From Chloroflexota bacterium (GTDB lineage: Bacteria; Chloroflexota; Anaerolineae; Promineifilales; Promineifilaceae), in contig JAWKOY010000018.1 of assembly GCA_041390945.1 (NCBI GenBank), forward strand, positions 61,237 to 125,236: a DNA stretch of 64,000 nt. The letters are read 5' to 3'. The first letter of the stretch is position 1. Each line of letters starts with the position of its first letter. This document shows, one piece after another, positions 11,667 through 60,559 of this stretch. The notes below the pieces were generated by a model. The model was not told the DNA's origin. It did not search any database and saw nothing but the letters and a program-made list of their open reading frames with translations. Position numbers and translations under genes: made by a program.

Positions 11667-13016
11667 ATGCAGATGAGTGAGCATACACCTCAGCGCGTGC
11701 TGATTGCCGGAGCCGCCGGCCGCGACTTCCATGACTTCAACACTTTCTTCCGGGAAAACGAGGATTATCAGGTTGTTGCGTTCACCGCGACCCAGATTCC
11801 CAATATCGAAGATCGTCGTTACCCACCTTCTTTATCGGGATCATTGTACCCGGACGGTATTCAAATTTACCCTGAATCCGAGCTGGAACAGTTGATTCGC
11901 GAGCACGACATTGACGATGTTGTATTTTCCTACTCGGATGTTTCGCATGAGTATGTCATGCACCTGGCTTCACGCGTATTGGCAGCCGGGGCGGGATTCC
12001 GCTTTCTAAGCCCGCAGAGCACCATGGTCAAGTCCACCAGACCGATCGTGTCCATCGGCGCTGTTCGCACGGGAAGCGGCAAGAGCCAGACATCGCGCCG
12101 CGTTCTGGATATCCTCAAGGATGATTTGGGCTACGAACGAGTTGTCGCCATTCGTCATCCCATGCCCTACGGGAATCTGGCAGAGCAGGCGGTGCAGCGG
12201 TTTGCCACTTACGAGGACATGGACCGTCACCACTGCACCATCGAGGAACGCGAGGAGTACGAACCGTATATTGACCGTGGTGCTGTCATTTATGCCGGGG
12301 TGGATTACGAGGCGATTCTTCGGCAGGCAGAGCAAGAAGCGGACATCATCATCTGGGACGGCGGGAACAACGACGTGCCCTTCTATGCCTCAGATTATCA
12401 TATCGTCGTCGTGGACCCCCACCGGCCGGGTCACGAACTACGCTACCATCCGGGAGAGACCAATCTGCGAATGGCCGATGTGGTGGTCATCAACAAGGTC
12501 GACACGGCCGAAAATGAGAACATCAATATCGTCCAAAACAACGTGCGTTTGGTGAACCGGGCGGCCATTATTGTGCGCGCTGCCTCGCCACTGTTTGTTG
12601 AGGATCCTGAAGCTATCCAGGGACAGCGGGTACTGGTTGTTGAGGACGGCCCAACCCTGACCCACGGCGAGATGGCCTACGGTGCCGGCGTCGTGGCTGC
12701 CTGGAAGGCAATTTAAAGCGCGGCCGAAATTATTGATCCTCGCCCCTATGCGGTGCGCAGCATTGCTGACACATACCGCAAGTATCCCTTCGACCGGCAC
12801 AGTTCTCCCCGCCATGGGCTGGTGAAGCCCAGATGGCCGACTGCAGAGACGATTAACAACACACCGGCCGATCTGTGCTCGTTGCCCTCCGGTGATCTGG
12901 CAAAGCTGATTGATATTCAGAAGCCCAGCCAGCGCGTCCGCGCTATGAGTTGCAAATTGGCCGTCCGTCTTTGTTTGGAATTGCTAACCAGCCAATTTGG
13001 TCGCAAGGCCGGGTAA
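11667..13016 (+). CDS. cyclic 2,3-diphosphoglycerate synthetase-family P-loop ligase, possible arginine synthetase ArcE (frameshifted at 3' end)
   Basis: GAAGRDFHDFN, RTGSGKS, RHPMPYG, CTIEEREEYE, WDGGNND, VEDGPTLTHG. Confidence 0.8.
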
Positions 13017-13030
13017 CCGGAGCGCGGACC

Positions 13031-13697
13031 TCAGCTTTCAGCGTCAATACGAAACGGCGCAAAACTGGGCGGTGCTCCAGAAACACAGGCCGTGGGTATG
13101 GATGGCCGCCACCATGTGGGCGGCCGTCCCTGCCCCTTGTGCCACCGCCGACCATATTCCGGGTAAGCTAACTCCATCTGCTGCATGTGGTGATCCCGGC
13201 TGACCTTGGCCAGGGATTGAGGCGGCGGCGATGCTTTGAGACTCTGGCTGTCGCCCGGATAATGCCAGGGGTTGGCGGTAGTCCCGCGGCGGATTTTGAC
13301 AATCTATCAGGGCTGCCTGTGCGGCGGGGACTAATCGGTCCAGGGCGCGCTCCATGCCAGAACGGTCGCTCCAATGATGCCCAATCGATCTATTTCCTGA
13401 GCACTGCTATAACCGATCCCGGACGTGACGGCGTGTTGGCTGATGAGGGGGAACGAAGTTTCCCGGCGTGAGCATTGAGGAGCTTGGGCATTTACTGATC
13501 AGTGTTTGGGTGATTGTCACATCATCCAGCAGCAGGATCACCGCCGCAGCGTAAACCGGCCCGGCTAGCGCGCCGCGACCGGCTTCATCCAGACCGGCCA
13601 CCGCCGTGACGGCCGTTGTCCGGGCAAACGCCTGTTCCGGTTGGATCGTGGGGGACGGGCGCTGGCGCACAGTGAGGTTACTGGGTTTTTCCGGCAA
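13031..13697 (-). CDS. rnhB: ribonuclease HII (several frameshifts)
   Basis: AGLDEAGRGALAGPVYAAAVIL, SIAAASI, and a C-terminal ...SFAP element recovered across frames. Confidence 0.85.
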
Positions 13698-14442
13698 TCG
13701 GGGTTGGCTCAGGTTGGGTTGTGTAGCGGCCGTTCCAGCCGTTCATACGGATGCGCAGCACTTCGCGGATCATGTTGATGGTGTCGCGTACGGGGCTGAT
13801 GCGACTGTTAGCCCCGTAGTACCGATACCTGGGAATTTCCCACGACGCGGTAACCGCGTTGCAGGGCAATGAACAGTAGCTCCACATCAGATGCCCAGCC
13901 GTCAATTGTCTGGTAGGGCACAGGATGTCCAGCGCCGCTTCCCGCCGGAAGCGCCGCCCGCACTGCGTATCCTCAAATCCGGGAATTGCCAGGACTGACG
14001 TAGAAGTTGAACACCCGGCCCTTGAAATGCCGGTATTCCGGAGTTCGTTATAACGGACGGCCCCTTCCGCCTCGCGGCTGCCGTTGCGACGTCATTGCCG
14101 CACTTAGTTGTGGCGGCAGGACGAGCGACTTCTTCCACCGGCATGGAGAAATCGGCATCAGCCATGAACAGGTATTCGCCCTGCGCGGCCAGCATACCGG
14201 TGCGAACGGCCGCCCCTTACCACGGGTTTCTTCGTCAACGTGACGCGAATGAATGGGTATTGGGCAGCAGTCGAGCAATTTCCGGGTAGCGTCCTGGCTG
14301 TTGTTGTTGACGATGATCCTCCCGGATGCGGAAATCCTGGCTTTCGACAAATGCAATCACACCGACGGCATCGTGCGAGGCAATCGTTCCCGCTTCGTTA
14401 TAGGCGGGATGATGAGGCTTGGAGCGGTGTACTCGTGGTCAT
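13678..14442 (-). CDS. polyprenol-phosphate glycosyltransferase (GT2, DPG synthase-like), heavily frameshifted
   Basis: Fragments IIVNNNSQDAT, RGKG, MLAAQGEYLFMADADFSMPVEE, SRISPVRDTINM. Confidence 0.75.
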
Positions 14443-15503
14443 GTTGATCTTTTCGGTTCTTGCCGGTATCAGGCAACACCCACCAGATGCTCCCCAAGCG
14501 TGCAAACCTCGAGTATCTTACCTACCGCCGGAACCAGGGGTCAACCTGCGTTAGGCGTGCCGTTCCAAGGTACAGAATGTTAACCGTCCGGTTTTGTTGA
14601 ATCGTGTGACGCTGTGGGAGCATCCGGGCCAGACCCAAAATTCCGGCCAGTTGTCCCCACCTTGGCGTGCCCCACGTGCGGCCTCGCCGCGCGGGCCGGA
14701 CAGCGATCCCGGCTGAGGCGCAACTGGGCGCTGAGAATCTGGGGCCAGTGCTGCTTCAGGGTTCAGAGGGTAATTCTTCCAGATCAGGTAGGCAGGAAAT
14801 TTCGGCCATCGTAGTAGCTGCTTGGTGGCACTGCCGCCGGAGGCTTCAGGCTTACAATGGTAGACAACTGCTTCCAGTACGTACAGGACCTGCCAGTCAG
14901 CGGTTAAGGCGCGGGGCTAAGATCCACGTCCTCATAGGAGAAGTAAACGGTCATCAAGGAAGCCAATCTTATCCAGCATGTCCCGATAAGCGGCCGCTGC
15001 CCACGAGCGCGAAGACATACTCCGTTTGTCGTATTGACCAGTCAACTACTCTGCCATATGCCCCGGTTGCCCGGGTATTCCGTCCACCATTCAATCGCCA
15101 GCGCGGTGAAAGCGCCGTGCGGTGTCAAGAGCAGTAGTTTGCTGGCGACAACGCCAGCGCCTCGGGTGGTCGAAACGCTGTGATAATGGCTTCAACCACC
15201 CTGGATCCGTTTCTGTATCGTTGTTGAGAACGAGGATGATGGTGTCGCCCTGAGCAACTGCATATCCGGCGTTACCGGGCCCCGGTAAACCCGGTTTTCG
15301 CCCAGCGCGACAACCCGCACATCGGGGTAATTCTCCTGCAGGAAGGCGAGCGACCCATCAGTTGAGCCGTTGTCGGCGACGATCTGCCTCAAAGTCCGGA
15401 CTGTCTGGGCCTGAAGGGAATCCAGATGAACGCCAGGTGATGACAACCGTTCCAGTTCGGGATGATGATGGGCCGCAAGGGGGTGGCCGGCAAGGTCCTG
15501 CAT
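14439..15503 (-). CDS. GT2 glycosyltransferase (rhamnosyltransferase-like), heavily frameshifted; 3' end approximate
   Basis: IIIPNWNG, IVADNGSTDGS, VRVVALGEN, LNNDT fragments; lies downstream of rfbD. Confidence 0.7.
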
Positions 15504-15506
15504 TGC

Positions 15507-16344
15507 TTACCCGGTCGTTTCGGTCGCCAGGTATTCAGCCACTGCATCTTGCCAGGGACGCAAGGTGATACCGATAGCCGCGCCGTTCATGTGAAGTGCC
15601 CCAAAGGGAGGCGGCGAAGACGGCAATCCGAAAGCTGCTGCTGAGGATGGGTATTTGCGCACCGAATCCACCAGCTCGGCGCAGCGCAGAATCTCATTCG
15701 CGAAAGGCCGGGAGCACGCTCCGGCGTTGGTGAAATGGTAAGTGCCGAACTGCCCTGTTTCGATCAGTTGGCCGATGGCCGCCGCCAGATCGTTGACATA
15801 CGTCGGATTTCCCACCTCATCCGTAACCACGCGCACTTCGCCGGTTTCCGCGCCCGGCGCAGAATGGCATGAATGAAGTTGCGGCCGCCGTGGGCGGTGA
15901 CGGTGCCGATGTAGTGGGTGGGCAGCGTTGACCGGACGTGGGTTTCGGCCGCTGCCTTGGAACGGCCGTAAAGAGTTGCGCGGACAGAGAGGCATCCATT
16001 CCTCATAGCCGGTAGTGAGTTCGCCACTGAATACTTCGTTGGTGCTGACATGGACCATCTTCGCACCAACGACAGCAGGCGGGGGCCACGTTGTGGGTTC
16101 CCTGGGCATTGACCCGATGGGCCAGTTCCGGATCGCGCGCGCAGCCCATTACGGTATAGGCGGCGCAGTGGATCACCACATCCGGAGCGGTATGGAATTC
16201 AACGGCCGATACCACCGTCTGGGCGAAGTCCGTAATATCCGCCCGAACGGAAGTCAAAGAAAACAGTCACAGTTCGTGCTGGGTCAGGGACTGTGAAAGT
16301 GCGGTCCCCAACTGCCCGCGACTTCCGGTAATCAGAATTTTCAT
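15507..16344 (-). CDS. rfbD: dTDP-4-dehydrorhamnose reductase (frameshifted)
   Basis: MKILITGSRGQLG, PDVVIHCAAYT, VHVSTNEVFSG, YGRSKAAAE, DEVGNPTYVNDLA. Confidence 0.88.
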
Positions 16345-16546
16345 CGTTGCTAATTATTGAGTGCGCTGCGCGTCTGTCAATGGTGGGTAGAGGTTTAGCG
16401 GGATGCCGTTGAACGGCCCGGCGTATGACCGATTAACAAGGTATCCACCAAGCTCACGATTGTTTTCTGCAACAGCTTTATCTTCACAATTCAATGGCGA
16501 TGCCTCGTCGTTCGTGCTAGCACATCACTGAAACCATTATGGTCAA

Positions 16547-17648
16547 TTGGCAAGAGCACGTCCCATGGTTGAAATCGCCGGTAACATGCACATTCACACC
16601 CGGTACTCCGACGGCGAGCAGTGGCATGACACCGCGGGAAGCCATCGCTGCCGGGTTGGATTTCATCATCGTCACCGACCACAACGTCTGGGTGCGCGGC
16701 GTCGAAGGTTTACTACCAGACCGACAACGGCCGTGTGCTGCTGCTGACTGGCGAAGAAGTCCACAACGTGCGCCGCCAGCCGCAAGCCTCCCATCTGCTG
16801 GCCTATGGGGCAAGGGAAGAGTTGTCCCCTATGCGGCCGATCCCCAGCAACTGATCAGCGAAACGCTAACCGGCGGGCTACTGCTTTCTGGCGCATCCCC
16901 ACGAACGCGATCTGGACTGATTAATTCGCCCGACCTCGGCTGGCATGACTGGGAGATCGAGGGTACCGGTCTGGAGATCTTGGAACTATATGTCCAGTGT
17001 CAAGAACGCGGTCGCCAACCATCTGGAGCAATCGTCTATCAGAACAAACTGATCGCCAGCATTGTCAGCCTGCGCATGGCCCTACGCCCGGAAACGGCCG
17101 TACTGGGGCCGGAGCCGGAAACGCTGAAGCTGTGGGACGGTTTCTGGCGACCGGCATGCGTGGCGGCCGTGGGTAACGCGGATGCCCATGCAACGCCGAT
17201 GCGGCTTGGTCCGATTGAACGGATTATCTACCCGTATGAATTTCTCTTTCGCGCAGTAAATACCCACCTGTTGATCCCGCGCGAGTTAAACGGTGACATT
17301 GAGCATGACCGGGCCTTAATCCTGCGCGCGATCGGCCGTGGGCATAGCTGGGTGGGTTACGATATGCCTCATCCGACCAGGGGCTTTCGCTATACGGTGC
17401 AGGGGGAACGACGGGGCCACATGGGGGATGAGATGGTGCTAGGCACAGGCGCGACCATCCAAATCAGCACGCCGGCCCGCTGCCATATCCGGCTCATTCG
17501 GCATGGGGAAGTCGTCGCCGAAGCAGAACGGGCCACCAATCTGGCCTACATTCCCACGGAACCCGGCGCGTATCGGGTCGAGTGTTTGATCGAGTATGAA
17601 GGCCGTGAGCGAGGCTGGATTTACAGCAATCCCATTTACCTCCGTTAA
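16547..17648 (+). CDS. PHP-domain (CehA/McbA-like) metallohydrolase (frameshifted)
   Basis: GNMHIHTRYSDG, GLDFIIVTDHN, GNADAH, YRVE...WIYSNPIY. Confidence 0.8.
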
Positions 17649-17669: not shown

Positions 17670-19064
17670 CTACGGTTGCAAACTGGCCTGGGTCAGAATT
17701 CCCCGGCCAATCGTTTCAGCCGTGCCAACTTCTTCCGGTTGCTCCAAAACCACCACCGCCACGTAGCGCGGACTCACGGAGGGCGTAACCCCCACATACC
17801 ATTCATTCACCTGCCCGTTGGGGGCAGAGACAACCGGAACGGAAAAGCCGCTAATCGTGTCCTCCTGCGGGAGGACCTGCCGTACCCGGTATGCCGTTTC
17901 GCCGGAAAAGACAGCGCCTGTCGTTGATTGAGTTGGATCCACTATACCCCATTGCCCTGCCGGCTGTTGGACCGCATCCACCAATCTTGGCTGTGGCAAG
18001 GTCCCGGAACCGGCCAGGGCTCCATAGGCCAAGGCCGCCTGCAACGGTGAAATCGTCAACGTCCCCTGGCCTAGCCCGGCTTCGGCCGCATCTGTAATAA
18101 CTACCTCGTCCGTTTCGGCCGTAGGAATAGGGATCTCCGGTGCAGTCGTCAAGCCCAGTGCCCGGAATGCGTCCGCGAGATTGTCAGCGCCCATGAGTTC
18201 CCCCAGATCGGCCGCTGCGCCGGGGCATAGACCCCGGACGGCATCAAACCAATCGGCCGTCTCACCTTCCGGTGGGTTCAGGCAACGCTCTGTCAGGCCG
18301 TCCACCTCGACAAGCCGGTTGACCTCGGCCACAGTATCTAGAGGATCGATGATACCGTCGGTAACGGCCGACGCTGTTAGCAGGGGAAAGAGAATCAGGC
18401 CCGGTTGGTAGCTCCCCTGCGTTGCCCGGTTGAAGAATGAAATATCCTCACCCGCTGCCAGGGCTTCGAACAGGGCGTCGAGTTCGGCCGGATCGTACCA
18501 GGGCTGGCTGACCATGGCCCGAATGTCGGCCGTGGGCTGCTCGTCGGCACCCCCCAGTTCAATCAGGACCAGGGCTCCCTGTTGATCGCGCATAAGTTGA
18601 GTGGCCGCCTGCTGGAGTGTGGCGTCAAGGGTCATGCGCACGTTCCGGCCGGAGGGTGGGATATGCAGCAGTTCATTCAGTGTGCTTTCGGCCGAACTGA
18701 TATCGGCGCCGCGCAGGATCGTGTCGTAAGACTCTTCAATGCCGGAGGCGCCATACCGCAAACTGTAATAGCCTACGGCCGGTCCGGATTCGGTCAGCGG
18801 ATAGAGGCGTTCCTGTTGATTGGCCGGCCCTCCGTTTTCGGCCAGGACGACATTGTTGCGGTCAAGGATGCTGCCGCGCTGGACACGGTATTCGGCTTCC
18901 AGACCACGAGGATTGTCCGGACGCTCGGCCAGGACTTCAGTACGTACAACGGACCAGTACGCCAGCGCCAGAGCGACTGCGCCAAACAGGATCAGGATCG
19001 CCAGCAGTAGATAGGTGAGGCGTTGGGCAATGGCCGCCTCGCTGTATTTCTCGCGTCCAATCAT
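17670..19064 (-). CDS. PbpA-like class B penicillin-binding protein lacking SxxK/SxN/KTG motifs
   Basis: TM, DNPR...RGSILDRN, RLYP, GIEESYD, MTLDATLQ, NRATQGSYQPG, GQGTLTISPLQ, WYVG; catalytic motifs replaced. Confidence 0.85.
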   Translation of the reverse strand: MIGREKYSEAAIAQRLTYLLLAILILFGAVALALAYWSVVRTEVLAERPDNPRGLEAEYRVQRGSILDRNNVVLAENGGPANQQERLYPLTESGPAVGYYSLRYGASGIEESYDTILRGADISSAESTLNELLHIPPSGRNVRMTLDATLQQAATQLMRDQQGALVLIELGGADEQPTADIRAMVSQPWYDPAELDALFEALAAGEDISFFNRATQGSYQPGLILFPLLTASAVTDGIIDPLDTVAEVNRLVEVDGLTERCLNPPEGETADWFDAVRGLCPGAAADLGELMGADNLADAFRALGLTTAPEIPIPTAETDEVVITDAAEAGLGQGTLTISPLQAALAYGALAGSGTLPQPRLVDAVQQPAGQWGIVDPTQSTTGAVFSGETAYRVRQVLPQEDTISGFSVPVVSAPNGQVNEWYVGVTPSVSPRYVAVVVLEQPEEVGTAETIGRGILTQASLQP

Positions 19065-20453
19065 GAACCGGATTCGGATTCGGCCGACAGGTAGAGAAGC
19101 AGCCCGATGAGGATGAAGCTAATTAGAAGCGAGCTGCCGCCATAGCTGACAAACGGCAGGGTGACGCCTGTCAGGGGCAACAACTTGGTGACGCCCCCCA
19201 TGATCAACAGGCTCTGGGCCGTCATCAGCACGGTCACTCCGGTCGCCAGATAGGCATAGAAGTGGCGTGGCGGACGGCCGCTGATGGCTCCCAGTGCGCT
19301 GCGAATACCGCGCTGGGCGAGAATGGCGAAACACCCAACCACTGCAATTGCCCCGATAAGCCCCCACTCTTCGCCAATAGCGGCAAAGGCAAAGTCGGAA
19401 TGAACGACAGGGATATAGTCGGGGAAGCCCTGTCCGATTCCCTGTCCCAGTAGCTTGCCCGCGCCGAGCGCATAAAGCGACTGAACAACCTGGTACGCCT
19501 GGTCATTGGCCTGGGGCCAGGGATTCAACCAGGTGGTTACCCGTGGACCGACCACATCGCCAAAGGCGATATAGGCAAAGACGCTGGCTACTCCCAGCAG
19601 GAGCAAGCCGCCGATCACATAACTTTTTCTGACCTGTCGCTACATAGAGCAAGGCCAGAAACAGGATGAAGAACAACGACGCCGCGCCAAGGTCTTCCTG
19701 CCAGACGAGCAGTACCATGCAGAAACCCCACACCAGCAGGAGTGGCCCCAGGAACGGCGCATTCGCCGCGATTCGCTCTAACAGGGTTCGGTTGGATCGT
19801 TTTGCCGCCGGATTCCTGTAGCGTAGTTGAGGCTCACGTTCGGTGAAGTAACTGGCGAAGAAGATGACCATGATCACTTTCAGCAGTTCCGACGGCTGGA
19901 AGTAAATGCGTGTTTCGATAAAGGGAATTGGGATCGGCAACCAGAGACGTGCACCGCCCCCGGACGGGTTGACCCCGAACAATAAGGTCATTGCCAGGAG
20001 GGCAAGGCTAATGGTGAGCAGGGTATAGCGGTATCGGATGAGGGGCATCAGGGAACGGGGCCAGACCGCAATAACAATGGACACTGCATAGGCCAAGACT
20101 ACCCACAACACCTGCCGCCCCAGGAAGTTGGGTGCCAGCCGGTCAATTAACAGAAGCCCCCAGCCGCTGAGCAGTGCCGCAATCGGTAATAGAAACGGGT
20201 CACGCGCGGGTTTGAGATAGCGGAGACAAAGGTGAAATCCAAGGGTAGCGAGCAGCCAGACAAGAAGCGGCCAGAGGTGCGGCCAAGTCAGTTCACCGGC
20301 TTCAACCAGACTGAAGGCCAGCCCATTTACAAAGATAAAGACGGCCGCAAATGCCAGCAGCATTAACTCGGTCCGGTCGCGCTTCCCTTCGCGCTCCCGC
20401 CGCAGGACCAACCCTCTATCTTCCCACAGGGCAACTGCACGACTCAACCCCAT
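19061..20453 (-). CDS. rodA: FtsW/RodA/SpoVE (SEDS) protein (frameshift near 19622)
   Basis: ARLWL, FQPSELLK, QEDLG, WLNPW, YQVVQS, HSDFAFAAIGEEWG, PLTGVTLPFVSYGGSS. Confidence 0.9.
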
Positions 20454-20479: not shown

Positions 20480-21349
20480 TCAGTCGAGGTAGCGACCGGA
20501 AATGGCTTCCCTGTCGACCTTTGCCTGCTCCGGTATATATGCCGGATCGGTAATGAGTGCATTTTCCAAAGCATGATGGGCCGGGAAGTCTCCCTCCCAT
20601 TGGTCCATGGATTGGACCAGCGCGCTTATCGTCTGATGGGCCACATCACGATTATGGGACAGTGTGCGAATGACCATCTCCACGGTGACTGGTTCTTCAC
20701 TTTCGTGCCAGACGTCATAGTCGGTTACGTGGGCCAGACAGGCATAGGCCATCTCAGCTTCGGCCGCAAGGAATGCCTCCGGGCTGGTCGTCATACCGAT
20801 AATGTCCATATCCCAGGTGCGGAACAGTTCTGATTCTCCTCTGGTGCTGAAGCGTGGCCCCTCGACGGTGATGAAGCTGCCGCCTTCATGTGGCGTGGCA
20901 CCGGCGGCACTTACGGCGTCAGCCAGTGCACGACTCAGTTCCGGTGAGAAGGGTTGGGCAACGCTGACATGAGCCACCAGACCATCGCCAAAGAACGACC
21001 GGTCACGCAGCCCCTTGGTGAAGTCAATGAGTTGATCGGGAATAACAATATCGCCCGGAGCAATAGATTCGCGCAGCGATCCGCAGGCGCTGATGGAGAT
21101 GACATAGCGAACACCGAGCAACTTGAGCGCATACATATTGGCCCGGTAAGGTACTTCCGTTGGCGTTAGCACATGTCCGCGGCCATGTCGTGGCAGGAAC
21201 GCTACACGTCGGCCGTGTAGGGTGCCAATCACGATGTCGTCAGACGGCATCCCAAATGGCGTGGTTACCGATACGGATTCCACGTCGGTCAGTTCTGACA
21301 TTCCGTATACGCCGCTTCCTCCAATAAACGCAAGCTCAATTTCACTCAT
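20480..21349 (-). CDS. mtnP: S-methyl-5'-thioadenosine phosphorylase
   Basis: FIGGSG, TPFGMPSD, RHGRGH, YRAN, EGPRFSTRGES, GMT, TDYDVW. Confidence 0.93.
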   Translation of the reverse strand: MSEIELAFIGGSGVYGMSELTDVESVSVTTPFGMPSDDIVIGTLHGRRVAFLPRHGRGHVLTPTEVPYRANMYALKLLGVRYVISISACGSLRESIAPGDIVIPDQLIDFTKGLRDRSFFGDGLVAHVSVAQPFSPELSRALADAVSAAGATPHEGGSFITVEGPRFSTRGESELFRTWDMDIIGMTTSPEAFLAAEAEMAYACLAHVTDYDVWHESEEPVTVEMVIRTLSHNRDVAHQTISALVQSMDQWEGDFPAHHALENALITDPAYIPEQAKVDREAISGRYLD

Positions 21350-22830: not shown

Positions 22831-22868
22831 AACGCACCTCCTGAGTTTATGGGAGGTGCGTTTTTTAT
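22831..22868 (+). terminator. Rho-independent terminator
   Basis: AACGCACCTCC...GGAGGTGCGTT followed by a T tract. Confidence 0.85.
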
Positions 22869-22948
22869 TCCGATCCCATTACAGTTCACCCCTGATAATT
22901 GTTGCTGAAGTTGTTTGTACCGGTGCACTTTGTTACACTGCGGGTACC

Positions 22949-24704
22949 ATGAGGGCCAAGGTGCGTTTTCTGGTTGCCGGTGGGTTGACCTTACTTGTTG
23001 CGGCTGTTGTCCTGTTTCAACATCAGCCGTCTTCGGCCGTTACCTATTCCGGCTATGGTGTCACGACCAATGGTCCTCTGACTCTCGAAGTTTCTGTGGT
23101 TCCACCGGTTGCCCAACCCGGCGATCAAATGAACCTCACAGCCCGACTGACCACGAGCGGCGTCACCAGTCAGACCCCGACCGTCACCCTTCGATTACCG
23201 CAGGGGGTAGAAGCTGATGTTTATGATCTGCCCGCCGGGGCAACGGTCAACCTGCAGGAAGGTACGCTTACCTGGGCACCGACTGTCGGCCCCAATACCC
23301 CCAGCCGTGAACTCTCTTAATCTGACAGTACAAAACCGTTGGATGTCACTGCACCGGAGCAGCCGGTTGCCTTCACACTGAGTGACAACGTTGAGAAACG
23401 CGAAGGGGAAACTCTTGTCTGGATTGGAATCCCGCCCATTGTGGACACAGCTCCCGCCAGACAAACAGTCGCTGTCGGCCAGCCGGTCAGGCTTGCCGCA
23501 GGTAGGGCCTCCGGTCCCGGCCCAATCAGCGAATTATGGGATTTGGGAGACGGCCGTCGGTTGACTGTGAATCCCCGGAGTCGCCTTTGGTTTCCCCGGC
23601 GAGTACACCTTGGGCCAGCGTCAAATCCGGCCGGACGGGTACGCCGTCAGTTGAGTGTTAACGTTGTTGCCAGCCCGGTTGCCGGGTTCCTGCCCGATGA
23701 CGATACACCCGGCGTGGGCCAATCTGTCGCATTTCGCAATTTGAGTGGCGGTCAACCGCCGTTGCGGGTTTCCTGGGAGTTTGGGGATGGCACCTCTGGC
23801 TACTGATTACGCCGAGGTGACGCATACTTACCAGTCTTCAGGCACCTATCAGGTTCGCCAAATTGTAGAAAATGATCCGGTCGCCTGAAGCCTCTTGGAC
23901 CATCAATGTCGGACTGCTTCCGGTTGCGGATATGATCTTGATGGACAGCACCAGTGTTGGTCAACCGTTGCAGGGTGAGGCGCTTTGGCGATGACAGCAT
24001 TACCGATTATGTCTGGGATAGTGGGGACGGTCGTGAGAAGATCGGTCCGGTTGTATCCCATTTGTATCGTTTGCCCGGCGACTACTATGTACGACTGGTG
24101 GCAATCAATGACTTCAGCAGTACGGAAGTCGGCCGTTGGGTGCACGTAGACCCGGTTCAACGACGCTGTACTTGCCGTCCTTGTTCTTTGGGTCGGCCAC
24201 GGCTGATACCGGCACTCCCTTGAGTGCTGACTATCCGGTGGATGTCGTGGTAGATAGTCCGGATATCGAATTGGCGGGGACGTATACGGTTCCTGTAATG
24301 TCGTTCCCGGAAGGACTACCTCCTGGCTGAGAAGTTATTCAGTTACATCAACGCAGTACGCAGCGAGTTTAACCTGCCTCCATTGGCCTACACGTATGAG
24401 TTGAGCCTTCGGCCCAGACTCATTAACAGACAAGGCGTCTGCCAGCCGGATAATCCGCATACCGGTACTGACGGTACAACCGCCGCCGAATTGCTGCTGC
24501 GCAGCGGATATCGTGGCGGCTACGCCGGCGAGGCTACTGCCTGGGGATTTGCTGACCCCGCGAGGCGTGCAGAATTCTGATGAACAGCGAGCCGCACTGC
24601 GTGTATTGCTCCTTAACCGCAATACCAACGAAGTCGGTGTCGGCTATTATGAGGATTACAGTACAGCCATTATCTGGCACTGGACGGCCGATTTGGTTTG
24701 CTAA
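22949..24704 (+). CDS. exported PKD-repeat protein with C-terminal CAP/SCP domain (several frameshifts)
   Basis: Signal peptide; WDLGDG, WEFGDG, WDSGDG PKD motifs; INAVRSEFNLPPL, HTGTDG, GEATAWG, EVGVG, WTAD CAP motifs. Confidence 0.7.
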
Positions 24705-24794
24705 GCTATGGTGGGCCAATCTGCCCCCGCCATTCGTGTTCAGTCACTCGGCTTCCGGCACGATGGTGGCTGACGGAGATGTGGTTAATTTCTC

Positions 24795-25233
24795 ATGATC
24801 CGTCGCTTCCGCTGGCCTCCGATCAGTATTTCTGTCTACGTGCTCAAAACGATTTGGCTGTCCTTGTTGGTACGGTAAACCAATCCGTTTCCCGGTAGTT
24901 ACTATGTGATGTCGGCTGATGTTTCACAGCGTCTGACGCCCAGACGAGACCGAGACTCTGGCGAATACAGAATGGTTTGTGCGGTTGGAAGACGGCCGTG
25001 GTGCCCAGGTATCCGAAGCAGCCGGACGCCCGATATTCGTCCAGCGTACAATAGACTTGACCCAACCGGATGTGGCGACTGGTGTCCCGGCGGCGACAGT
25101 TCCCGCAATTGTGAATCCAACCTCTACACCGTCGCCAACCCCGGAGATACCGCCGACGGAGGTCCCGCCAACATTGCCTCCACCACCGGTTGATTCCCCG
25201 CCGGTAATTGTGCCTGCCACACCACAACCATAG
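24795..25233 (+). CDS. hypothetical protein with Pro-rich C-terminus (frameshifted; 5' end uncertain)
   Basis: ORF 24979-25233 ends in PTSTPSPTPEIPPTEVPP; upstream frames are broken. Confidence 0.35.
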
Positions 25234-25307
25234 AATGCTGGTAGTTGATCACCCTCTTTAACCTTAATGCGCTTGCCGCATCGTTCCCGCCGTTTTACAA
25301 TGCAATT

Positions 25308-26477
25308 ATGGCAGAGCAGAATCTTGTTCTGAACAATCGTTACAAACTACTGGAGCGCATCGGCAGTGGGGGGATGTCGGTTGTCTACCGTGCGCAGGAC
25401 CTGTTATTGGGCCGTATTGTGGCCGTGAAGGTCCTGCATGATAACCTGACCGACGATCTGAACTTTTCGCGGCGCTTTCAGCGAGAAGCCTATTCGGCCG
25501 CAAACCTGTCCCATCCCAATATTGTGACTGTCCATGACATCGGCCAACAGGATGACCGTTACTACATGGTCATGGAGTATGTAGACGGCCGCACGCTCAA
25601 GCAGTTGGTCCGCTTGCAAAATCAGCAAGGCCAGCCCATGCCGATCAGTCGCGCGCTCGATCTGATTATTCAGGTCTGCGCCGGGATCGGCTACGCGCAC
25701 CGTGCCAACCTTGTTCATTGCGATGTCAAGTCGCAGAACATCCTGGTTACGCGTGATGATCAGGTCAAGGTTGCTGATTTCGGCATTGCCCGCGCCATGA
25801 GCGAGGCTACCCAGCATACGGTTGACGATCAGATTTGGGGAACGCCCCATTATTTCTCCCCGGAACAGGCGGCCGGACAACCGGCTACCCCGGCTTCTGA
25901 TGTGTACTCAATTGGCGTTGTCCTGTTTGAGCTTCTCACCGGTCGGTTGCCGTTTACGGCTGATACCCATACGGCCCTGGCGCTCAAGCATATGCACGAA
26001 CCGCCGCCGCATGTATCGCAATTTAACCCGGCTGTTCCACAGGCCCTTGACGATATTCTCCAGAAGGTCATGTCCAAAGAACCGGCGGCACGGTATCGGA
26101 CGGCCGATCAACTGGGGCGTATCCTCATGGCGTATCGGGAGAGCAGTCTCATGCAGACAGGCGCTATCCCGATGCTGGACGTTGCTTCGTCAATGCCGGT
26201 TTATGAACAACCGACCGCTATCTTTACCAATGTGAATAGCCCAGTCGGCCAGCCACAACCATCGACAATGGACACCATCGGCCGTACTTCCCCGCAGGGT
26301 AAGGTGTATGGCTCGACGACACCACCTTTTGAAGATGGTTCTGAGATGGTTTATCCGGTAAATGCTTCTGATGGCGAGCGAGATTGGGTTGCTGTCAGTC
26401 TGGGTGTATTGGCTGTTGTCGCACTATTGGGGCTTATTCCCCTATGGTACTTTGTCTACCAGGCGTACAGTGGCTAG
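25308..26477 (+). CDS. Hanks-type Ser/Thr protein kinase, C-terminal TM, no PASTA
   Basis: IGSGGMSVVY, VAVK, HCDVKSQN, DFGIA, GTPHYFSPE, DVYSIG. Confidence 0.95.
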   Translation: MAEQNLVLNNRYKLLERIGSGGMSVVYRAQDLLLGRIVAVKVLHDNLTDDLNFSRRFQREAYSAANLSHPNIVTVHDIGQQDDRYYMVMEYVDGRTLKQLVRLQNQQGQPMPISRALDLIIQVCAGIGYAHRANLVHCDVKSQNILVTRDDQVKVADFGIARAMSEATQHTVDDQIWGTPHYFSPEQAAGQPATPASDVYSIGVVLFELLTGRLPFTADTHTALALKHMHEPPPHVSQFNPAVPQALDDILQKVMSKEPAARYRTADQLGRILMAYRESSLMQTGAIPMLDVASSMPVYEQPTAIFTNVNSPVGQPQPSTMDTIGRTSPQGKVYGSTTPPFEDGSEMVYPVNASDGERDWVAVSLGVLAVVALLGLIPLWYFVYQAYSG

Positions 26478-26508: not shown

Positions 26509-28466
26509 ATGACAAACCCCTCCAAAATTACCCGTTGGTTGGTTCTGGTACTCATTGGGGTAGCTGCCCTGGCCCTCATCTATTCGTTCGGCTCCTCGCC
26601 GACGGAAACTGATGAAATACCGGTCAGCCAATTGGCCCAGGAAGTGAGTGCTAACGAAGTCGCCCAGATCGACGTAGCCAGCGACGGGCAGCAAGTTGAT
26701 ATTACCTATCTGGACACAACCAAACCAGCAGCCCGCACCACGATTAGCGGCGTCAGCTCCATTGAGGAAGTGCTGGCCGCGTATGGGATCAACAGTTCCG
26801 CCTATGCCGATGGGACACCCAAAGTTGTTTATGCTGAGGTGAGCCGCTGGTCGGGCATACTCAGTATGCTGGGCATTTTCCTGCCGGCGTTACTGATGCT
26901 GGGCTTTTTCTATTTCATCTTCAGGCAGGCGCAAGGCTCCAATAGTCAGGCCATGTCATTTGGCAAGAGCCGCGCCCGCATGTTTACCGGCGATCATCCC
27001 ACGGTTGGATTTGATGATGTTGCCGGTTGTGATGAGGCCAAAGAGGAACTGCAAGAAATTGTCGAGTTTCTAAAGGAACCGGAAAAGTTCGTTTCCTTTG
27101 GGGCGCGGATTCCCAAAGGTGTGTTGCTGGTTGGCAGCCCCGGCACCGGGAAGACGCTGCTGGCTAAAGCCGTTTCCGGTGAGGCCGGTGTGCCGTTCTT
27201 TTCGATAGCCGGTTCAGAGTTTGTCGAGATGTTCGTCGGTGTCGGTGCCAGCCGTGTACGCGATCTGTTTGAGCAAGCCAAGCGCAACAGCCCCTGCATC
27301 ATCTTCATTGATGAGATTGATGCAGTCGGCCGTCAGCGTGGTGCCGGCCTCGGTGGATCCCATGACGAGCGTGAGCAGACGCTGAACCAGATTCTGGTAG
27401 AGATGGACGGCTTTGACACCGATACCCATGTGATTATCCTGGCCGCCACAAACCGACCGGACATTCTGGATCCGGCATTGATGCGCCCCGGCCGTTTCGA
27501 TCGGCGCGTGATCATTGACCGGCCTGACATGCGTGGCCGCGAAGCTATTTTCCGTGTGCATGTTCGCGGCAAGCCCATTTCCAGCAAAGTTGATGTCTTG
27601 ACCCTGGCAAAGGCTACCCCCGGTTTTGTCGGCGCTGATATTGAAAACACCGTAAACGAAGCTGCCCTTCTGGCGGCGCGCCGGGACAAAAGAGCATCGG
27701 CATGTCGGAATTCCAGGAAGCGATTGAACGGGTGCAACTTGGGCCGGAGCGTAAGAGCCGGATTATGAGCGCCGAGGAAAAGAGCTCACCGCCTATCATG
27801 AGGCCGGTCATGCCGTTGTCAGCCATATGCTGCCTCATGCCCAGACGGTTCGCAAGATTACCATAATCCCGCGCGGTATGGCGGGAGGCGTAACCTGGTA
27901 TCTGGACGAGGATGCTTACTTCCACACCCGATCTCGCTTTGAGGCGCTTATTGCCACAGCCTTAGGCGGCGTGTGGCCGAAGAGATTATCTTCGGTGAGG
28001 TAACTACCGGTGCATCCAACGACCTCTTTCAGCACGTCACACGTATGGCGCGTGACATGGTTACGCAGTACGGTATGAGCAACGGTTTGGGATTGCGGGT
28101 TTATGGTGAGAAGCAGAGATGGTCTTCCTCGGCCGAGATTAGCGAACAGCGTGACTATTCGGATGCCGTAGCCGAGCAGATTGACGCCGAGGTTCGGCAG
28201 ATCATTGATGAGGCTCATAAAAGCGCCTACGATATTCTGACCCAAAACCGGGACAAGCTGGAGCTGATAGCCTCCCGGTTGCTGGAAATTGAATCGCTGG
28301 AAGCCGAGGAGTTCGTTGCTTTGATGGAGGGCAGGAGCTACCCCCAAAGCCCCAGAAATCGAAGACGGGCGGTACAGGTACAAAAGCCCCGGCAACATCC
28401 CCGGCTGATGCCCATGATCGATCCCGTCCGTCAATTGACTTACCGCCTTCACCGTCGCCTGCCTGA
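26509..28466 (+). CDS. ftsH: ATP-dependent zinc metalloprotease FtsH (frameshifts 27690-28330)
   Basis: 2 [51 protein letters not shown]. Confidence 0.95.
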
Positions 28467-28509
28467 GCGACCTTATTAGCGGGTACCGACAACTGGATCG
28501 TCTGCGCTT

Positions 28510-37524: not shown

Positions 37525-38657
37525 TTAGGGTAGGGTAAGAGTGATGAAATTAACCCGGCCGGGGAAGACCCACATTTCCTCGGTTACGGCATCCCGGCCT
37601 GTGCCCACGCTGACCTCATAATAGCCGGCCACCACATCGTCCACAGTGAAATTCTCCCCAAGCTGTAGATCACTATTGACGTCTGATTGAGCGTAGCTGG
37701 CGGAGGCAGTATACGGGGCAGCACCGTCTACACGTCGCAGTATGACCGGAGCCTCATGAGCCGGCTGCCCGTTGGCGAATGTGATCTGGGCGGCAACGAC
37801 CCCCGTGCCCGAAAACGGACGTAACCACAACAGCGGATTTCGTGTAGACAAATAGGCGTTGGCCCCTTCCCTCACCTCAAAATGTAAGTGAGGCCCGTAG
37901 GCTACACCCGAATCCCCTGATAGTCCGATCTGTTCCCCGGCCCTAACCTGCTGGCCGACATCTACCTGCACGTCTGATAAAGGTGGCCGTATACGGTGAA
38001 TAGGGGGAGATTATTGAGGGATGGACTGTGCTCAATGATGACCACATTGCCGTAAAAGTTGGTTTGTGGCCCATAGGCGATAGCGTCATCCGGCCCGGCC
38101 ACTCGCACGATGCCGTCAGCCACAGCCAAAATCGGCGTACCGGTCGGCACAATGAATTCGACGCCATGATGGGGTTGCAATGTGCCGCTCCCGGTGCTGG
38201 CGTACGGATAGGCTTTGTCTGTCCACTGCGGGTAATCGGCCGATACCGGACGGCCGAGAATCAAATGCTCCCCCGGTTCCCGTGGCGGCGGTGCCGGTGG
38301 TGTAAAGGTCGGTGGGGGGATCGTCGGTGTTGAAGTGGTTGTCGGCGTAACTGATGTTGCTGTTGGCGAAGGCACGTCAGTCGGTATTTTCGTCACTGTG
38401 GCAACGGCCGTGGGTATCTGCGGTGGGGGGGCTGGTGTAGGCAAATCATCTACCGAAGTAACAATTGCCGGTGTTGTCGTTGCCACAGGAAGGGCGGAGG
38501 CTGTTATGGCAGGCTGGCTAGTGGCTGTTCCCGCGCTGCTCTCCGACGCAGCCCGGCTCTGCGGCGCGCTGCAACCGGCAAGTGCAATAGCTGACACAGC
38601 CAATCCGATGGTGATCGCCAAAACCCCCGGTCCCGCTGGAAACTGCTTCCCGTTCAA
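37525..38657 (-). CDS. M23-family peptidase lipoprotein with Pro/Thr linker (frameshift near 37972)
   Basis: Lipobox ALAGC, HHGVEF, YGNVVIIEH, YGHL, GPHLHFEVR, NPLLW. Confidence 0.85.
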
Positions 38658-59021: not shown

Positions 59022-60559
59022 CTAAGGGGAGGTGACACCTTCCTTACGAATGATTTGCCACAACGCGCGGAGCTCGGAGCCGCCCAGAAGCCAGAGGACT
59101 ACCAGATAAACGAGGCCGCCGGCCGCGAGTCCCAACCCCAGGTCGAGGAAGGCGTTGTCTGTCAGGCGGGTGGTGAGGGCAATCGTTGCAGCCAGGGCGA
59201 CCGATGCCAGGAGAATACGCCAGGCGGATTGAGCCAGGTGCCGCACACCCAGCCCTCCCAATGCACGCCGGTTCAGCTCAAAGAGAACGGCCGCCAGGAG
59301 TGTGAAGCCAATCGTGGTTGCCAACGCCAATCCGGCGATGCCCATGCTGTTGACCAGAAAAACAGCCAGGATAGCCGTGACCACAAGCCATCCCAGATAG
59401 GCCAGCATTGGGGTTCGCGTGTTGTGCTGGGCATAAAACAGCCGGGCGACGATCTCCAGTGTGGATTCGCTGACGATGCGGATGGAGAAAAACACTAAAA
59501 TCGTGTAGACGAGCTGGGTAGCCTCAGCGTCGAATGCGCCTCCCTGAAACAGAAAACCGATGATCTCCTGGCCCAGCATGGCGGTCACCACTGCGGAAGG
59601 AACCGTGAGCGCCCAGATGATACCGAGGGTATTGCTGGCTGTTTTTCGCAGTCCGGCAATGTCATTGGCGTTGTACAGTTCTGCCAGCGTCGGAAAGATA
59701 ACCAGAGCGATGGACGTACCGAATAAGGTCTGTGGTAGCTGCATTAACGCATAGGCGTAAAAGTAGGCTGAGGTGGAGCCACTGGGAAGACCTGACGCGA
59801 GACGAATGGTGACCAGGTCCGCAAACTGAACCGTCCCCAGCGTGACAATTCTCGGCCCCATCAGGCGGATAACTTCACGGACGCCTTCCATACGCAGATC
59901 CAGTGCCGGCCGGTAGGTGATATGGTATTTAATTAGTGCCGGAACCTGAATGGCGATATGGAGAAATGCTCCAATGACTGTGCCCCAGGCCAATCCGATA
60001 ATACCCATGGTGGGCACGAAGAAATAGAGCCCGATCACATAGCCAATGTCCAGAGCTACAGGAGCAAGGGCTGGCAACGCGAAATGTTGATGTGCGTTGA
60101 GAATACTGCTGAGCACGCCACTCACGCCGAAGATCGTGGTTTGTATCAGGATGACGCGCATAATTTCGGCCGTTAGCAGTTGTTGTTCCGGCGAGAAATC
60201 CGGGACCAGGACAACCCTCGTCAACCAGGGCGCCAGGATTGCTCCGACAAGCGACACAGCCCCCAGAACAAACAGTACCAGCGTCAAAATGGTATTGGCG
60301 AGGCGGGCGCTGTCGCGTGACGATCGTTGGCTGAGGTACTCGGTGTAGACAGGGATAAACGCCGCGGCTAAGGATCCCCGGCGATGACCACAAAGAAGAC
60401 TTCAGGAAGCTGGTTGGCAGCGGTGAAAGCGTCGTACTGCGGGCTGGTACCGAAAGCCTGGGCTACCAACCGGGCACGAATGAGGCCGGTTAGTTTGCCC
60501 AACGCAAAGAGGAAAATGACGATAACGGACGAGCGCAGCAGGTGGCGTGTACGCACCAT
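59022..60559 (-). CDS. murJ: MurJ/MviN-family flippase (frameshift near 60375)
   Basis: GLIR..LVAQAFG...DAFTAANQLP, LMQLPQTLFG, FPTLA, FQGGAF, RLFYAQHNTRTP, GIAGLALA. Confidence 0.92.

What the first reader, a model, noticed from the sequence alone, without database searches (positions are those of the whole stretch)
17670..20453. SEDS glycosyltransferase paired with a catalytically dead class B PBP
Seen: the PbpA-like ORF is uninterrupted (464 aa) and keeps its fold landmarks, but all three transpeptidase motifs are replaced. Canonical YxPGSTFK reads YQPGLILF (Ser to Leu, Lys to Phe), SCN reads LCP, and AGKTG reads SGFSV. The overlapping RodA keeps QPSE, the HSDF catalytic Asp and PFVSYGGSS. 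Established: SEDS proteins need a cognate bPBP for activation, and the bPBP cross-links the glycan. Inference: this is a SEDS/pseudo-PBP pair in which the PBP is only an activator, scaffold or ligand binder. It might make un-crosslinked glycan or a non-peptidoglycan polymer, in a lineage whose wall chemistry is unclear. A MurJ flippase and an M23 peptidase are also in the window.
Basis: partly seen in the sequence, partly recalled or inferred. Interest (0 to 1): 0.8.

Follow-up and report, generated by a model that had tools for sequence, protein, structure and literature searches.

The report
Cell-wall polymerase with enzymatically dead partner
This filamentous-type Chloroflexota bacterium and hundreds of relatives keep, under selection and next to or fused with an intact-looking cell-wall polymerase, a penicillin-binding-protein relative that has lost all its cross-linking residues, so it likely serves as a natural non-enzymatic switch for the polymerase while other enzymes would do the cross-linking.

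Summary
Confirmed. The 464-aa PbpA-type protein lacks SxxK (L223/F226), SxN (LCP) and KTG (FSV) but keeps the fold (AF2 pLDDT 92; PbpA-family top hits). One correction: rodA is split here by an extra T at 19624-19628, most likely an assembly error. The loss is clade-wide: 307 of 323 non-redundant homologues lack the Ser/Lys pair, 297 of them in one clade; dN/dS median is 0.14. In 101 of 110 loci a SEDS gene is adjacent (73) or fused (28), and it keeps its catalytic motifs. The pair descends from the fhaA-fhaB-rodA-pbpA cluster. The genome has a full peptidoglycan pathway (FtsW-FtsI, RodA-PBP2, two aPBPs, YkuD proteins), so wall chemistry is not obscure; the window's MurJ-like and M23 genes are unlinked. 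Best reading: a third, accessory SEDS whose dead partner likely activates it through its TM helix and pedestal, with cross-linking likely supplied in trans; an orphan MecA_N-type bPBP is a candidate (35 of 37 dead-PbpA genomes; not found here). I found no paper on it; the scan noted this family four times before on other DNA. New variant of a known kind; interest 0.6.

The parts
17670..19064 (-). pseudo-PbpA, 464 aa: N-terminal TM helix (about 5-40), PBP_dimer_2 pedestal (63-142), transpeptidase-fold domain without catalytic residues
18945..19052 (-). N-terminal helix 5-40 (TM anchor); forms most of the predicted SEDS interface in the relative's pair
18387..18398 (-). motif 1 position: L223-I-L-F226 in place of SxxK
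18222..18230 (-). motif 2 position: L279-C280-P281 in place of SxN; C280 and C261 are kept in 92% of the dead clade
17838..17852 (-). motif 3 position: S405-G-F-S-V409 in place of AGKTG
19061..20453 (-). SEDS glycosyltransferase of the actinobacterial RodA type (about 463 aa), split in the assembly; stop overlaps the pbp start (ATGA)
19624..19628 (+). T5 run where the rodA frame breaks; likely assembly indel
19394..19396 (-). SEDS catalytic Asp codon (HSDF; counterpart of E. coli RodA Asp262)
19887..19898 (-). SEDS QPSE motif
20480..21349 (-). 5'-methylthioadenosine phosphorylase (MTAP), conserved upstream neighbour in the same orientation (56 of 81 loci)

Best explanation
The locus encodes a third, accessory SEDS-PbpA pair in which the PBP has lost all three transpeptidase motifs but is kept by selection, likely as the non-catalytic subunit that binds and switches on the SEDS lipid II polymerase, whose glycan would then be cross-linked by other enzymes. 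Shown: motif loss, retained fold, purifying selection, linkage and fusion to a SEDS with intact motifs, descent from the fhaA-fhaB-rodA-pbpA cluster, and a complete peptidoglycan pathway elsewhere in the genome. Predicted: binding through the TM helix and pedestal. From the literature: a TP-dead bPBP still activates its SEDS. Inferred: activation here, lipid II as substrate, and cross-linking in trans by aPBPs, L,D-transpeptidases or an orphan MecA_N-type bPBP; an accessory (repair or localised synthesis) role rather than bulk growth.
For: Dead site: 307 of 323 non-redundant homologues lack the Ser/Lys pair, and none of the 307 has both; with motif columns removed, 297 form one clade (FastTree support 0.968). 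Selection: 19 independent dead-clade pairs give dN/dS median 0.14 (0.06-0.28), TP domain alone 0.14; a related strain shows 20 synonymous and 3 non-synonymous codons among the listed differences. Coupling: SEDS adjacent in 73 and fused in 28 of 110 loci, with at least seven multi-genome fused groups on the tree. SEDS: QPxExxK, QxDxG and PFxSxGGSS in 92 of 92 and PxxH[ST]DF in 91 of 92 near-full-length partners; Arg48- and Arg210-like residues in 107 and 111 of 114; dN/dS median 0.08 in 14 pairs. Conservation sits in the pedestal (24 of 102 columns at >=85% in dead vs 22 in active) and halves in the TP domain (32 vs 67 of 317). Complex model of the closest relative's pair: ipSAE 0.86 vs best control 0.00 (mark reached by 116 of 157 solved and 2 of 215 mismatched pairs; runs agree in >=94% of contacts; partner pLDDT >=81); contacts only at PBP residues 7-56, 82 and 131-134; it may pass by likeness to solved RodA-PBP2. 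FtsW polymerase needs the bPBP TM helix but not its TP activity (10.1101/358663). Five near-complete relatives each have exactly 3 SEDS, while 28 dead-PbpA genomes have 2-4 other bPBP matches, including a stand-alone MecA_N-type bPBP with intact motifs.
Against: No activity was measured. The TP domain is under as strong selection as the N-half, more than a bare activator needs. The basic residue before the PL2 Trp (Arg101-like; mutation lowers E. coli RodA activity, PMC10449877) is kept in this genome but is Ala in many Promineifilaceae partners (AALW 48 of 114). The orphan MecA_N bPBP is not found in this 86%-complete genome and is not specific to dead-PbpA genomes (6 of 10 intact-PbpA genomes, 42 of 102 others). 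In C. difficile the helper bPBP's own catalysis was dispensable (PMC11463367 Discussion). Three 15-kb loci (L062, L099, L112) have the dead PBP without an adjacent SEDS. Uncoupled glycan synthesis can be toxic (PMC10257715).
Confidence: 0.62

Rival explanations
1. The dead TP domain has become a sensor or docking domain: it binds stem peptides, wall fragments or a partner protein non-covalently, and its movement gates the SEDS, so the pair makes glycan on demand.
For: TP-domain dN/dS equals the whole protein's; new residues are fixed near the old site (Q220 92%, P281 91%, Gln at the Lys position 65%, Cys261 and Cys280 92%); TP-domain opening is an allosteric switch for RodA (PMC10257715 passages); the ancestral cluster carries FhaA/FhaB phosphosignalling genes.
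Against: The old Ser position takes 15 residue types and the KTG position is highly variable. Several fused forms have a PBP part of only 347-385 aa against about 440-470, so no single pocket is conserved. No ligand was tested.
Confidence: 0.2
2. The pair makes deliberately un-crosslinked glycan or a non-peptidoglycan polymer (for example sheath or capsule material).
For: No cross-linker is encoded in the operon; the Arg101-like residue is often lost; a bactofilin/coiled-coil gene has replaced the FHA genes upstream in 41 of 80 loci, hinting at a specialised, localised structure.
Against: All other lipid II-handling SEDS residues are kept; no glycosyltransferase, flippase or sugar-pathway gene is in the conserved neighbourhood; the genome has many cross-linkers.
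Confidence: 0.1
3. The pair is a decaying relic, or the SEDS is inactive too (rodA truly frameshifted in this strain).
For: rodA is split in the assembly; one contig shows an indel in pbp; PbpA-type genes were not found in about two thirds of 150 class genomes searched.
Against: dN/dS far below 1 for both genes; intact ORFs across many families; one contig lacks the extra base at the rodA break; the assembly splits many genes.
Confidence: 0.04

Closest known systems
Actinobacterial RodA-PbpA pair of the fhaA-fhaB-pstP-rodA-pbpA-pknA-pknB cluster (M. tuberculosis PbpA, PDB 3UN7/3LO7; cluster order recalled)
   Same: PBP_dimer_2 + TP architecture and fold (TM 0.73-0.75 by query); rodA-pbpA order; fhaA and fhaB upstream in intact and dead Anaerolineae loci; an accessory third SEDS. 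Mycobacterial RodA is non-essential and protects against wall damage (10.1101/2021.10.26.465981 passages).
   Different: All three catalytic motifs are lost; MTAP is inserted upstream; FHA genes are replaced by a bactofilin/coiled-coil gene in many Promineifilaceae and are not adjacent here; coexists with a full Rod system.
Natural SEDS-PbpA fusions of Coriobacteriia (Eggerthella lenta 4MNR, Atopobium parvulum 4JBF; Senegalimassilia in PMC12516126)
   Same: Best sequence and structure hits; fusion of SEDS and PbpA also occurs in 28 of 110 loci here.
   Different: Those TP domains keep PGS-K and KTG and were solved with beta-lactams (entry titles).
Engineered TP-dead bPBPs: S. thermophilus PBP2x* and S. 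aureus PBP1* with FtsW; B. subtilis PBP2B with PBP3; C. difficile SpoVD with PBP3/PBP1
   Same: A dead bPBP still supports its SEDS, and another PBP supplies cross-linking (the B. subtilis work seen only as cited there).
   Different: Those are laboratory point mutants; this is a natural, ancient, clade-wide loss of every motif under selection.
Canonical RodA-PBP2 and FtsW-FtsI
   Same: SEDS active-site residues (PMC10449877 passages) and predicted TM/pedestal interface.
   Different: Both canonical pairs are encoded separately in this genome with intact motifs; the window proteins score far below the MrdA, RodA and FtsW equivalog cut-offs.

Membership tests
Class B PBP, PbpA type (D,D-transpeptidase) | N-terminal TM helix, PBP_dimer_2 pedestal and TP fold | tested here: met
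   Pfam; AF2 pLDDT 92.4; Foldseek top hits 4MNR and 3UN7
Class B PBP, PbpA type (D,D-transpeptidase) | SxxK nucleophile and general base | tested here: not met
   L223/F226 here; no Ser+Lys pair in 307 of 323 homologues
Class B PBP, PbpA type (D,D-transpeptidase) | SxN and K(T/S)G motifs | tested here: not met
   LCP and FSV
Class B PBP, PbpA type (D,D-transpeptidase) | Acylation by beta-lactams and cross-linking activity | not testable with these tools
   needs Bocillin-FL and muropeptide assays
SEDS peptidoglycan glycosyltransferase | FTSW_RODA_SPOVE fold with catalytic Asp, Pro257-, Trp102-, Gln111-, Glu114-, Lys117-, Asp159-, Arg48- and Arg210-like residues | tested here: met
SEDS peptidoglycan glycosyltransferase | Intact reading frame in this genome | tested here: inconclusive
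   split in the assembly; one low-depth contig lacks the extra base; relatives intact
SEDS peptidoglycan glycosyltransferase | Lipid II polymerisation | not testable with these tools
   in vitro assay needed
Cognate SEDS-bPBP pair | Genetic linkage or fusion | tested here: met
   101 of 110 loci; ATGA overlap
Cognate SEDS-bPBP pair | Physical complex through the bPBP TM helix | tested here: inconclusive
   model supports but does not show it: 0.86 vs 0.00, textbook-like pair
fhaA-fhaB-pstP-rodA-pbpA-pkn cluster | FHA genes upstream of rodA-pbpA | tested here: inconclusive
   met in L156, L157, L159, L162, L163, L167-L169, L171; not adjacent in this window; pstP not seen in the loci scanned
Canonical Rod complex (MrdA/MrdB) | MrdA/RodA equivalog score and mreBCD linkage | tested here: not met
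   147 of 455 bits and 186 of 337 bits; the true mreB-C-D-pbp2 is on C16

The most novel reading that the evidence does not exclude
A large Anaerolineae clade has split the two-enzyme SEDS-bPBP synthase: PbpA was repurposed once as a dedicated, beta-lactam-blind regulatory subunit (sensor or activator), repeatedly fused to its polymerase and, in Promineifilaceae, co-encoded with a bactofilin/coiled-coil scaffold, with cross-linking handed to an orphan MecA_N-type bPBP. This would be a natural, evolved version of the dead-bPBP-plus-helper arrangement known only from laboratory mutants.
Probability: 0.3. Interest if true: 0.8.

Novelty: new variant of a known kind. Interest (0 to 1): 0.6.

Why it matters
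SEDS-bPBP pairs are thought to couple glycan polymerisation to cross-linking, and uncoupling is regarded as harmful. A natural, ancient, clade-wide pseudo-bPBP kept beside an intact SEDS shows that the non-catalytic role of a bPBP can be the selected one. The family supplies a graded series (intact, partly degenerate, dead, dead and truncated, free or fused) for asking which parts of a bPBP activate a SEDS and who cross-links the product. Single-chain natural fusions are convenient for biochemistry and cryo-EM. It also warns that domain-based annotation miscounts transpeptidases in abundant wastewater and sediment Chloroflexota.

Tried and rejected
Single-protein scan of genome contigs found no relative; the alignment scan did. 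No RNA holder was listed, so expression is untested. A first regex for SxN gave false positives and a first regex for the RW motif missed most rows; both were redone by alignment or position. The dN/dS script stopped after 24 pairs; from these I dropped one duplicate pair, three intact-PbpA pairs (0.16, 0.39, 0.05) and one partly degenerate pair (0.25). MurJ-like and M23 genes of the window were rejected as partners (distant, not conserved). The Ser/Thr kinase at 25245-26477 is on the other strand and near the pair in only 6 of 81 loci. The bactofilin/coiled-coil gene was not found in this genome. The orphan MecA_N bPBP was not found in this genome. Ser at motif 1 in 25 dead homologues was rejected as activity because Lys, Asn and KTG are absent. 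No formal clade test or rooted order of losses was run, so 'one main loss plus up to three smaller ones or early stages' is a reading of a FastTree tree. Nine literature searches found no description of this family; subscription papers are not covered, and the supplementary tables of PMC12516126 (10,390 PBPA_dimer proteins, listed by domain) were not read.

Full report
Observation. The ORF at 17670-19064 (-) is a clean 464-aa frame with a PBP_dimer_2 pedestal and a transpeptidase-fold domain. Its best solved relatives are the PbpA-type domains of Eggerthella (4MNR), Atopobium (4JBF) and M. tuberculosis (3UN7), by sequence and by structure (AF2 model pLDDT 92.4, pTM 0.89; Foldseek TM 0.70-0.75 by query). 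The stretch 340-425 is 86 residues against 97-104 in intact forms.

A correction. rodA (19061-20453) is not one frame in this assembly: QPSE and HSDF lie in different frames, with the break in the T5 run at 19624-19628. A contig of public run X1 lacks one base at 19624 (depth 3.3), the closest relative is intact (72% and 86% identity over the two halves), and ftsI, murA and several window genes are split too. I read it as an assembly error. The same run also has one contig with an extra base at 18689 in pbp (depth 3.9) that run X2 lacks; single low-depth contigs are weak either way.

The loss is old and clade-wide. Relatives came from a protein search (107 hits), 41 related genomes, 80 of 191 loci in GTDB-type genomes, titled mostly Promineifilaceae, Ardenticatenaceae and Anaerolineae, 151 class genomes and the best 150 representatives. 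After dropping sequences under 330 aa and merging at 80% identity, 323 remained: 13 intact PbpAs, 3 canonical bPBPs used as outgroup, and 307 without the Ser/Lys pair; 25 of these keep Ser alone and 2 Lys alone. Because the profile was built from dead members, this ratio is not prevalence. In the evenly drawn class sample I count 37 genomes with a dead or degenerate PbpA, 10 with an intact one and 1 fragment among 150 (124 weaker matches were unlisted). With motif columns removed, 297 dead sequences form one clade (support 0.968); 10 partly degenerate ones (e.g. ATFN/GCN/KTG) lie near the intact ones at low support. This suggests one main loss and possibly a few more or early stages; it was not formally tested.

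It is not decay. Nineteen independent dead-clade pairs give dN/dS 0.06-0.28 (median 0.14), the TP domain alone 0.06-0.30 (median 0.14), and the partner SEDS 0.04-0.10 (14 pairs); three intact pairs give 0.05, 0.16 and 0.39. The 23 listed differences of a related strain within pbp give 20 synonymous and 3 non-synonymous codons (56 further differences over the whole stretch were not shown). Highly conserved columns are as many in the pedestal of dead as of intact forms (24 vs 22 of 102) but half as many in the TP domain (32 vs 67 of 317; 297 vs 13 sequences, so only the ratio is meaningful). Some new residues are nearly fixed: Q220, P281, Gln at the Lys position, and the C261/C280 pair; a disulfide at this place in M. 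tuberculosis PbpA is recalled, not checked.

The SEDS partner. Of 110 loci (L016-L125, which include the window itself, a few duplicate genomes and one canonical PBP2), 73 have a SEDS gene adjacent, 28 fused and 9 none in view. Fused forms fall into at least seven multi-genome groups, and one intact PbpA is fused as well. All 92 near-full-length partners keep QPxExxK, QxDxG and PFxSxGGSS, and 91 keep PxxH[ST]DF; Arg48- and Arg210-like residues are kept in 107 and 111 of 114. These match residues that E. coli RodA needs; Glu258, replaced here, is dispensable there (PMC10449877, passages). The Arg101-like residue is kept in this genome but lost in many relatives. A model of the closest relative's pair scores 0.86 against 0.00 for the best control (116 of 157 solved and 2 of 215 mismatched pairs reach the mark; runs agree in at least 94% of contacts; partner pLDDT at least 81), with contacts only in the TM helix and pedestal; as a textbook-like pair it may pass from memory.

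Context. Upstream of rodA lie fhaA and fhaB in intact (L156, L157, L159) and dead (L162, L163, L167-L169, L171) loci (66 of 126 candidate neighbour ORFs were scanned), which ties the pair to the actinobacterial rodA-pbpA cluster. MTAP sits directly upstream in 56 of 81 loci. In 41 of the 80 loci a bactofilin domain with a long coiled coil precedes it (Pfam Bactofilin in 11 of 11 tested); it is not found in this genome. The genome (86% complete) has a dcw cluster with ftsI, murF, mraY, murD, ftsW, murG, murC, murB, ddl, ftsQ, ftsA and ftsZ (named by my reading of the translations and Pfam hits) and murJ nearby, mreB-mreC-mreD-pbp2, rodA-minD, murE, a split murA, two aPBPs and three YkuD proteins; FtsI, PBP2 and both aPBPs keep their motifs. 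The wall chemistry is therefore ordinary peptidoglycan and this pair is an extra.

Who cross-links? Five near-complete relatives each have exactly three SEDS genes, and 28 dead-PbpA genomes have two to four other bPBP matches. One is a stand-alone bPBP with intact motifs and, in 6 of 7 examined, a MecA_N domain. MecA_N is found in 35 of 37 dead-PbpA genomes, 6 of 10 intact-PbpA genomes and 42 of 102 others (my cross-count; kin are not independent), and not in this genome. It is a candidate only; aPBPs and L,D-transpeptidases are equally available.

Mechanism. FtsW polymerase needs its bPBP's TM helix but not its TP activity (10.1101/358663, first part of the main text read). In C. difficile a TP-dead SpoVD still works through SpoVE with help from PBP3, whose catalysis was dispensable, and probably PBP1; B. 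subtilis PBP3 needs the dead PBP2B (PMC11463367, abstract and Discussion). TP-domain opening switches RodA on, and uncoupling is described as toxic (PMC10257715, passages). Mycobacterial RodA is non-essential and helps under wall damage (10.1101/2021.10.26.465981, passages). The best reading is a non-catalytic activator of an accessory polymerase with cross-linking in trans (0.62). A sensing role for the TP domain (0.2) is compatible with it and explains the strong selection there, but shortened TP domains in fused forms argue against one conserved pocket. A non-peptidoglycan polymer (0.1) and decay (0.04) are unlikely.

Novelty. A 2025 survey of SEDS and bPBPs mentions PBPA_dimer proteins, SEDS fusions and Dictyobacter paralogues, but in the passages read only engineered inactive bPBPs (PMC12516126; supplements not read). 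Nine searches found no description of this family. Four earlier AI notes of this scan describe the same family in other genomes, and one an apparently convergent case in Competibacter; they came after my reading was formed and are not independent evidence. Verdict: a real, conserved pseudo-enzyme subunit; it fails membership of the active bPBPs but likely works like their activating half. New variant of a known kind; interest 0.6.

Noticed in passing
L102:2780-4606 and 40 other loci: A bactofilin domain fused to a 400-500 aa coiled coil is encoded upstream of MTAP-rodA-pseudo-pbpA in 41 of 80 loci, where other Anaerolineae have fhaA-fhaB; absent from this genome as assembled.
   Followed up: partly
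L180:4513-6729, L182-L187: Stand-alone, catalytically intact bPBP with a MecA_N (NTF2-like) domain and lipoprotein-like N-terminus, with no SEDS neighbour; MecA_N found in 84 of 151 class genomes, two copies in family f29.
   Followed up: partly
L166-L173: Fused SEDS-pseudo-PBP proteins of 755-900 aa whose PBP part is only 347-385 aa, an internal shortening of the TP domain.
   Followed up: partly
L144:346-2907, L148:1495-4098: Intact-site PbpA of about 860 aa with a long N-terminal extension that has no Pfam match.
   Followed up: no
window 20480-21349: MTAP is kept directly upstream of rodA across distant Anaerolineae families; no functional link is evident.
   Followed up: no
window 16539-17648: Convergent PHP-like metallohydrolase (weak CehA/McbA match, 1.4e-5), 64% identical in the closest relative.
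   Followed up: no
window 59196-60377: Divergent MurJ-like protein, 26% identical to the genome's dcw-linked MurJ.
   Followed up: no
window about 37900-38650: M23-type peptidase, apparently split over two frames; weak MepM/ShyA matches.
   Followed up: no
window 13000-16400, 22850-25150, 26509-28479; G000 C45, C16, C20, C29: Many genes (ftsH, a PKD/CAP protein, ftsI, pbp2, murA, an aPBP) are split by frameshifts, consistent with an indel-rich assembly.
   Followed up: partly
G000 C22:81339-82316 and C16:103667-104653: Two full-scoring mreB genes; the canonical rodA (C36) lies with minD, away from mreBCD-pbp2.
   Followed up: no
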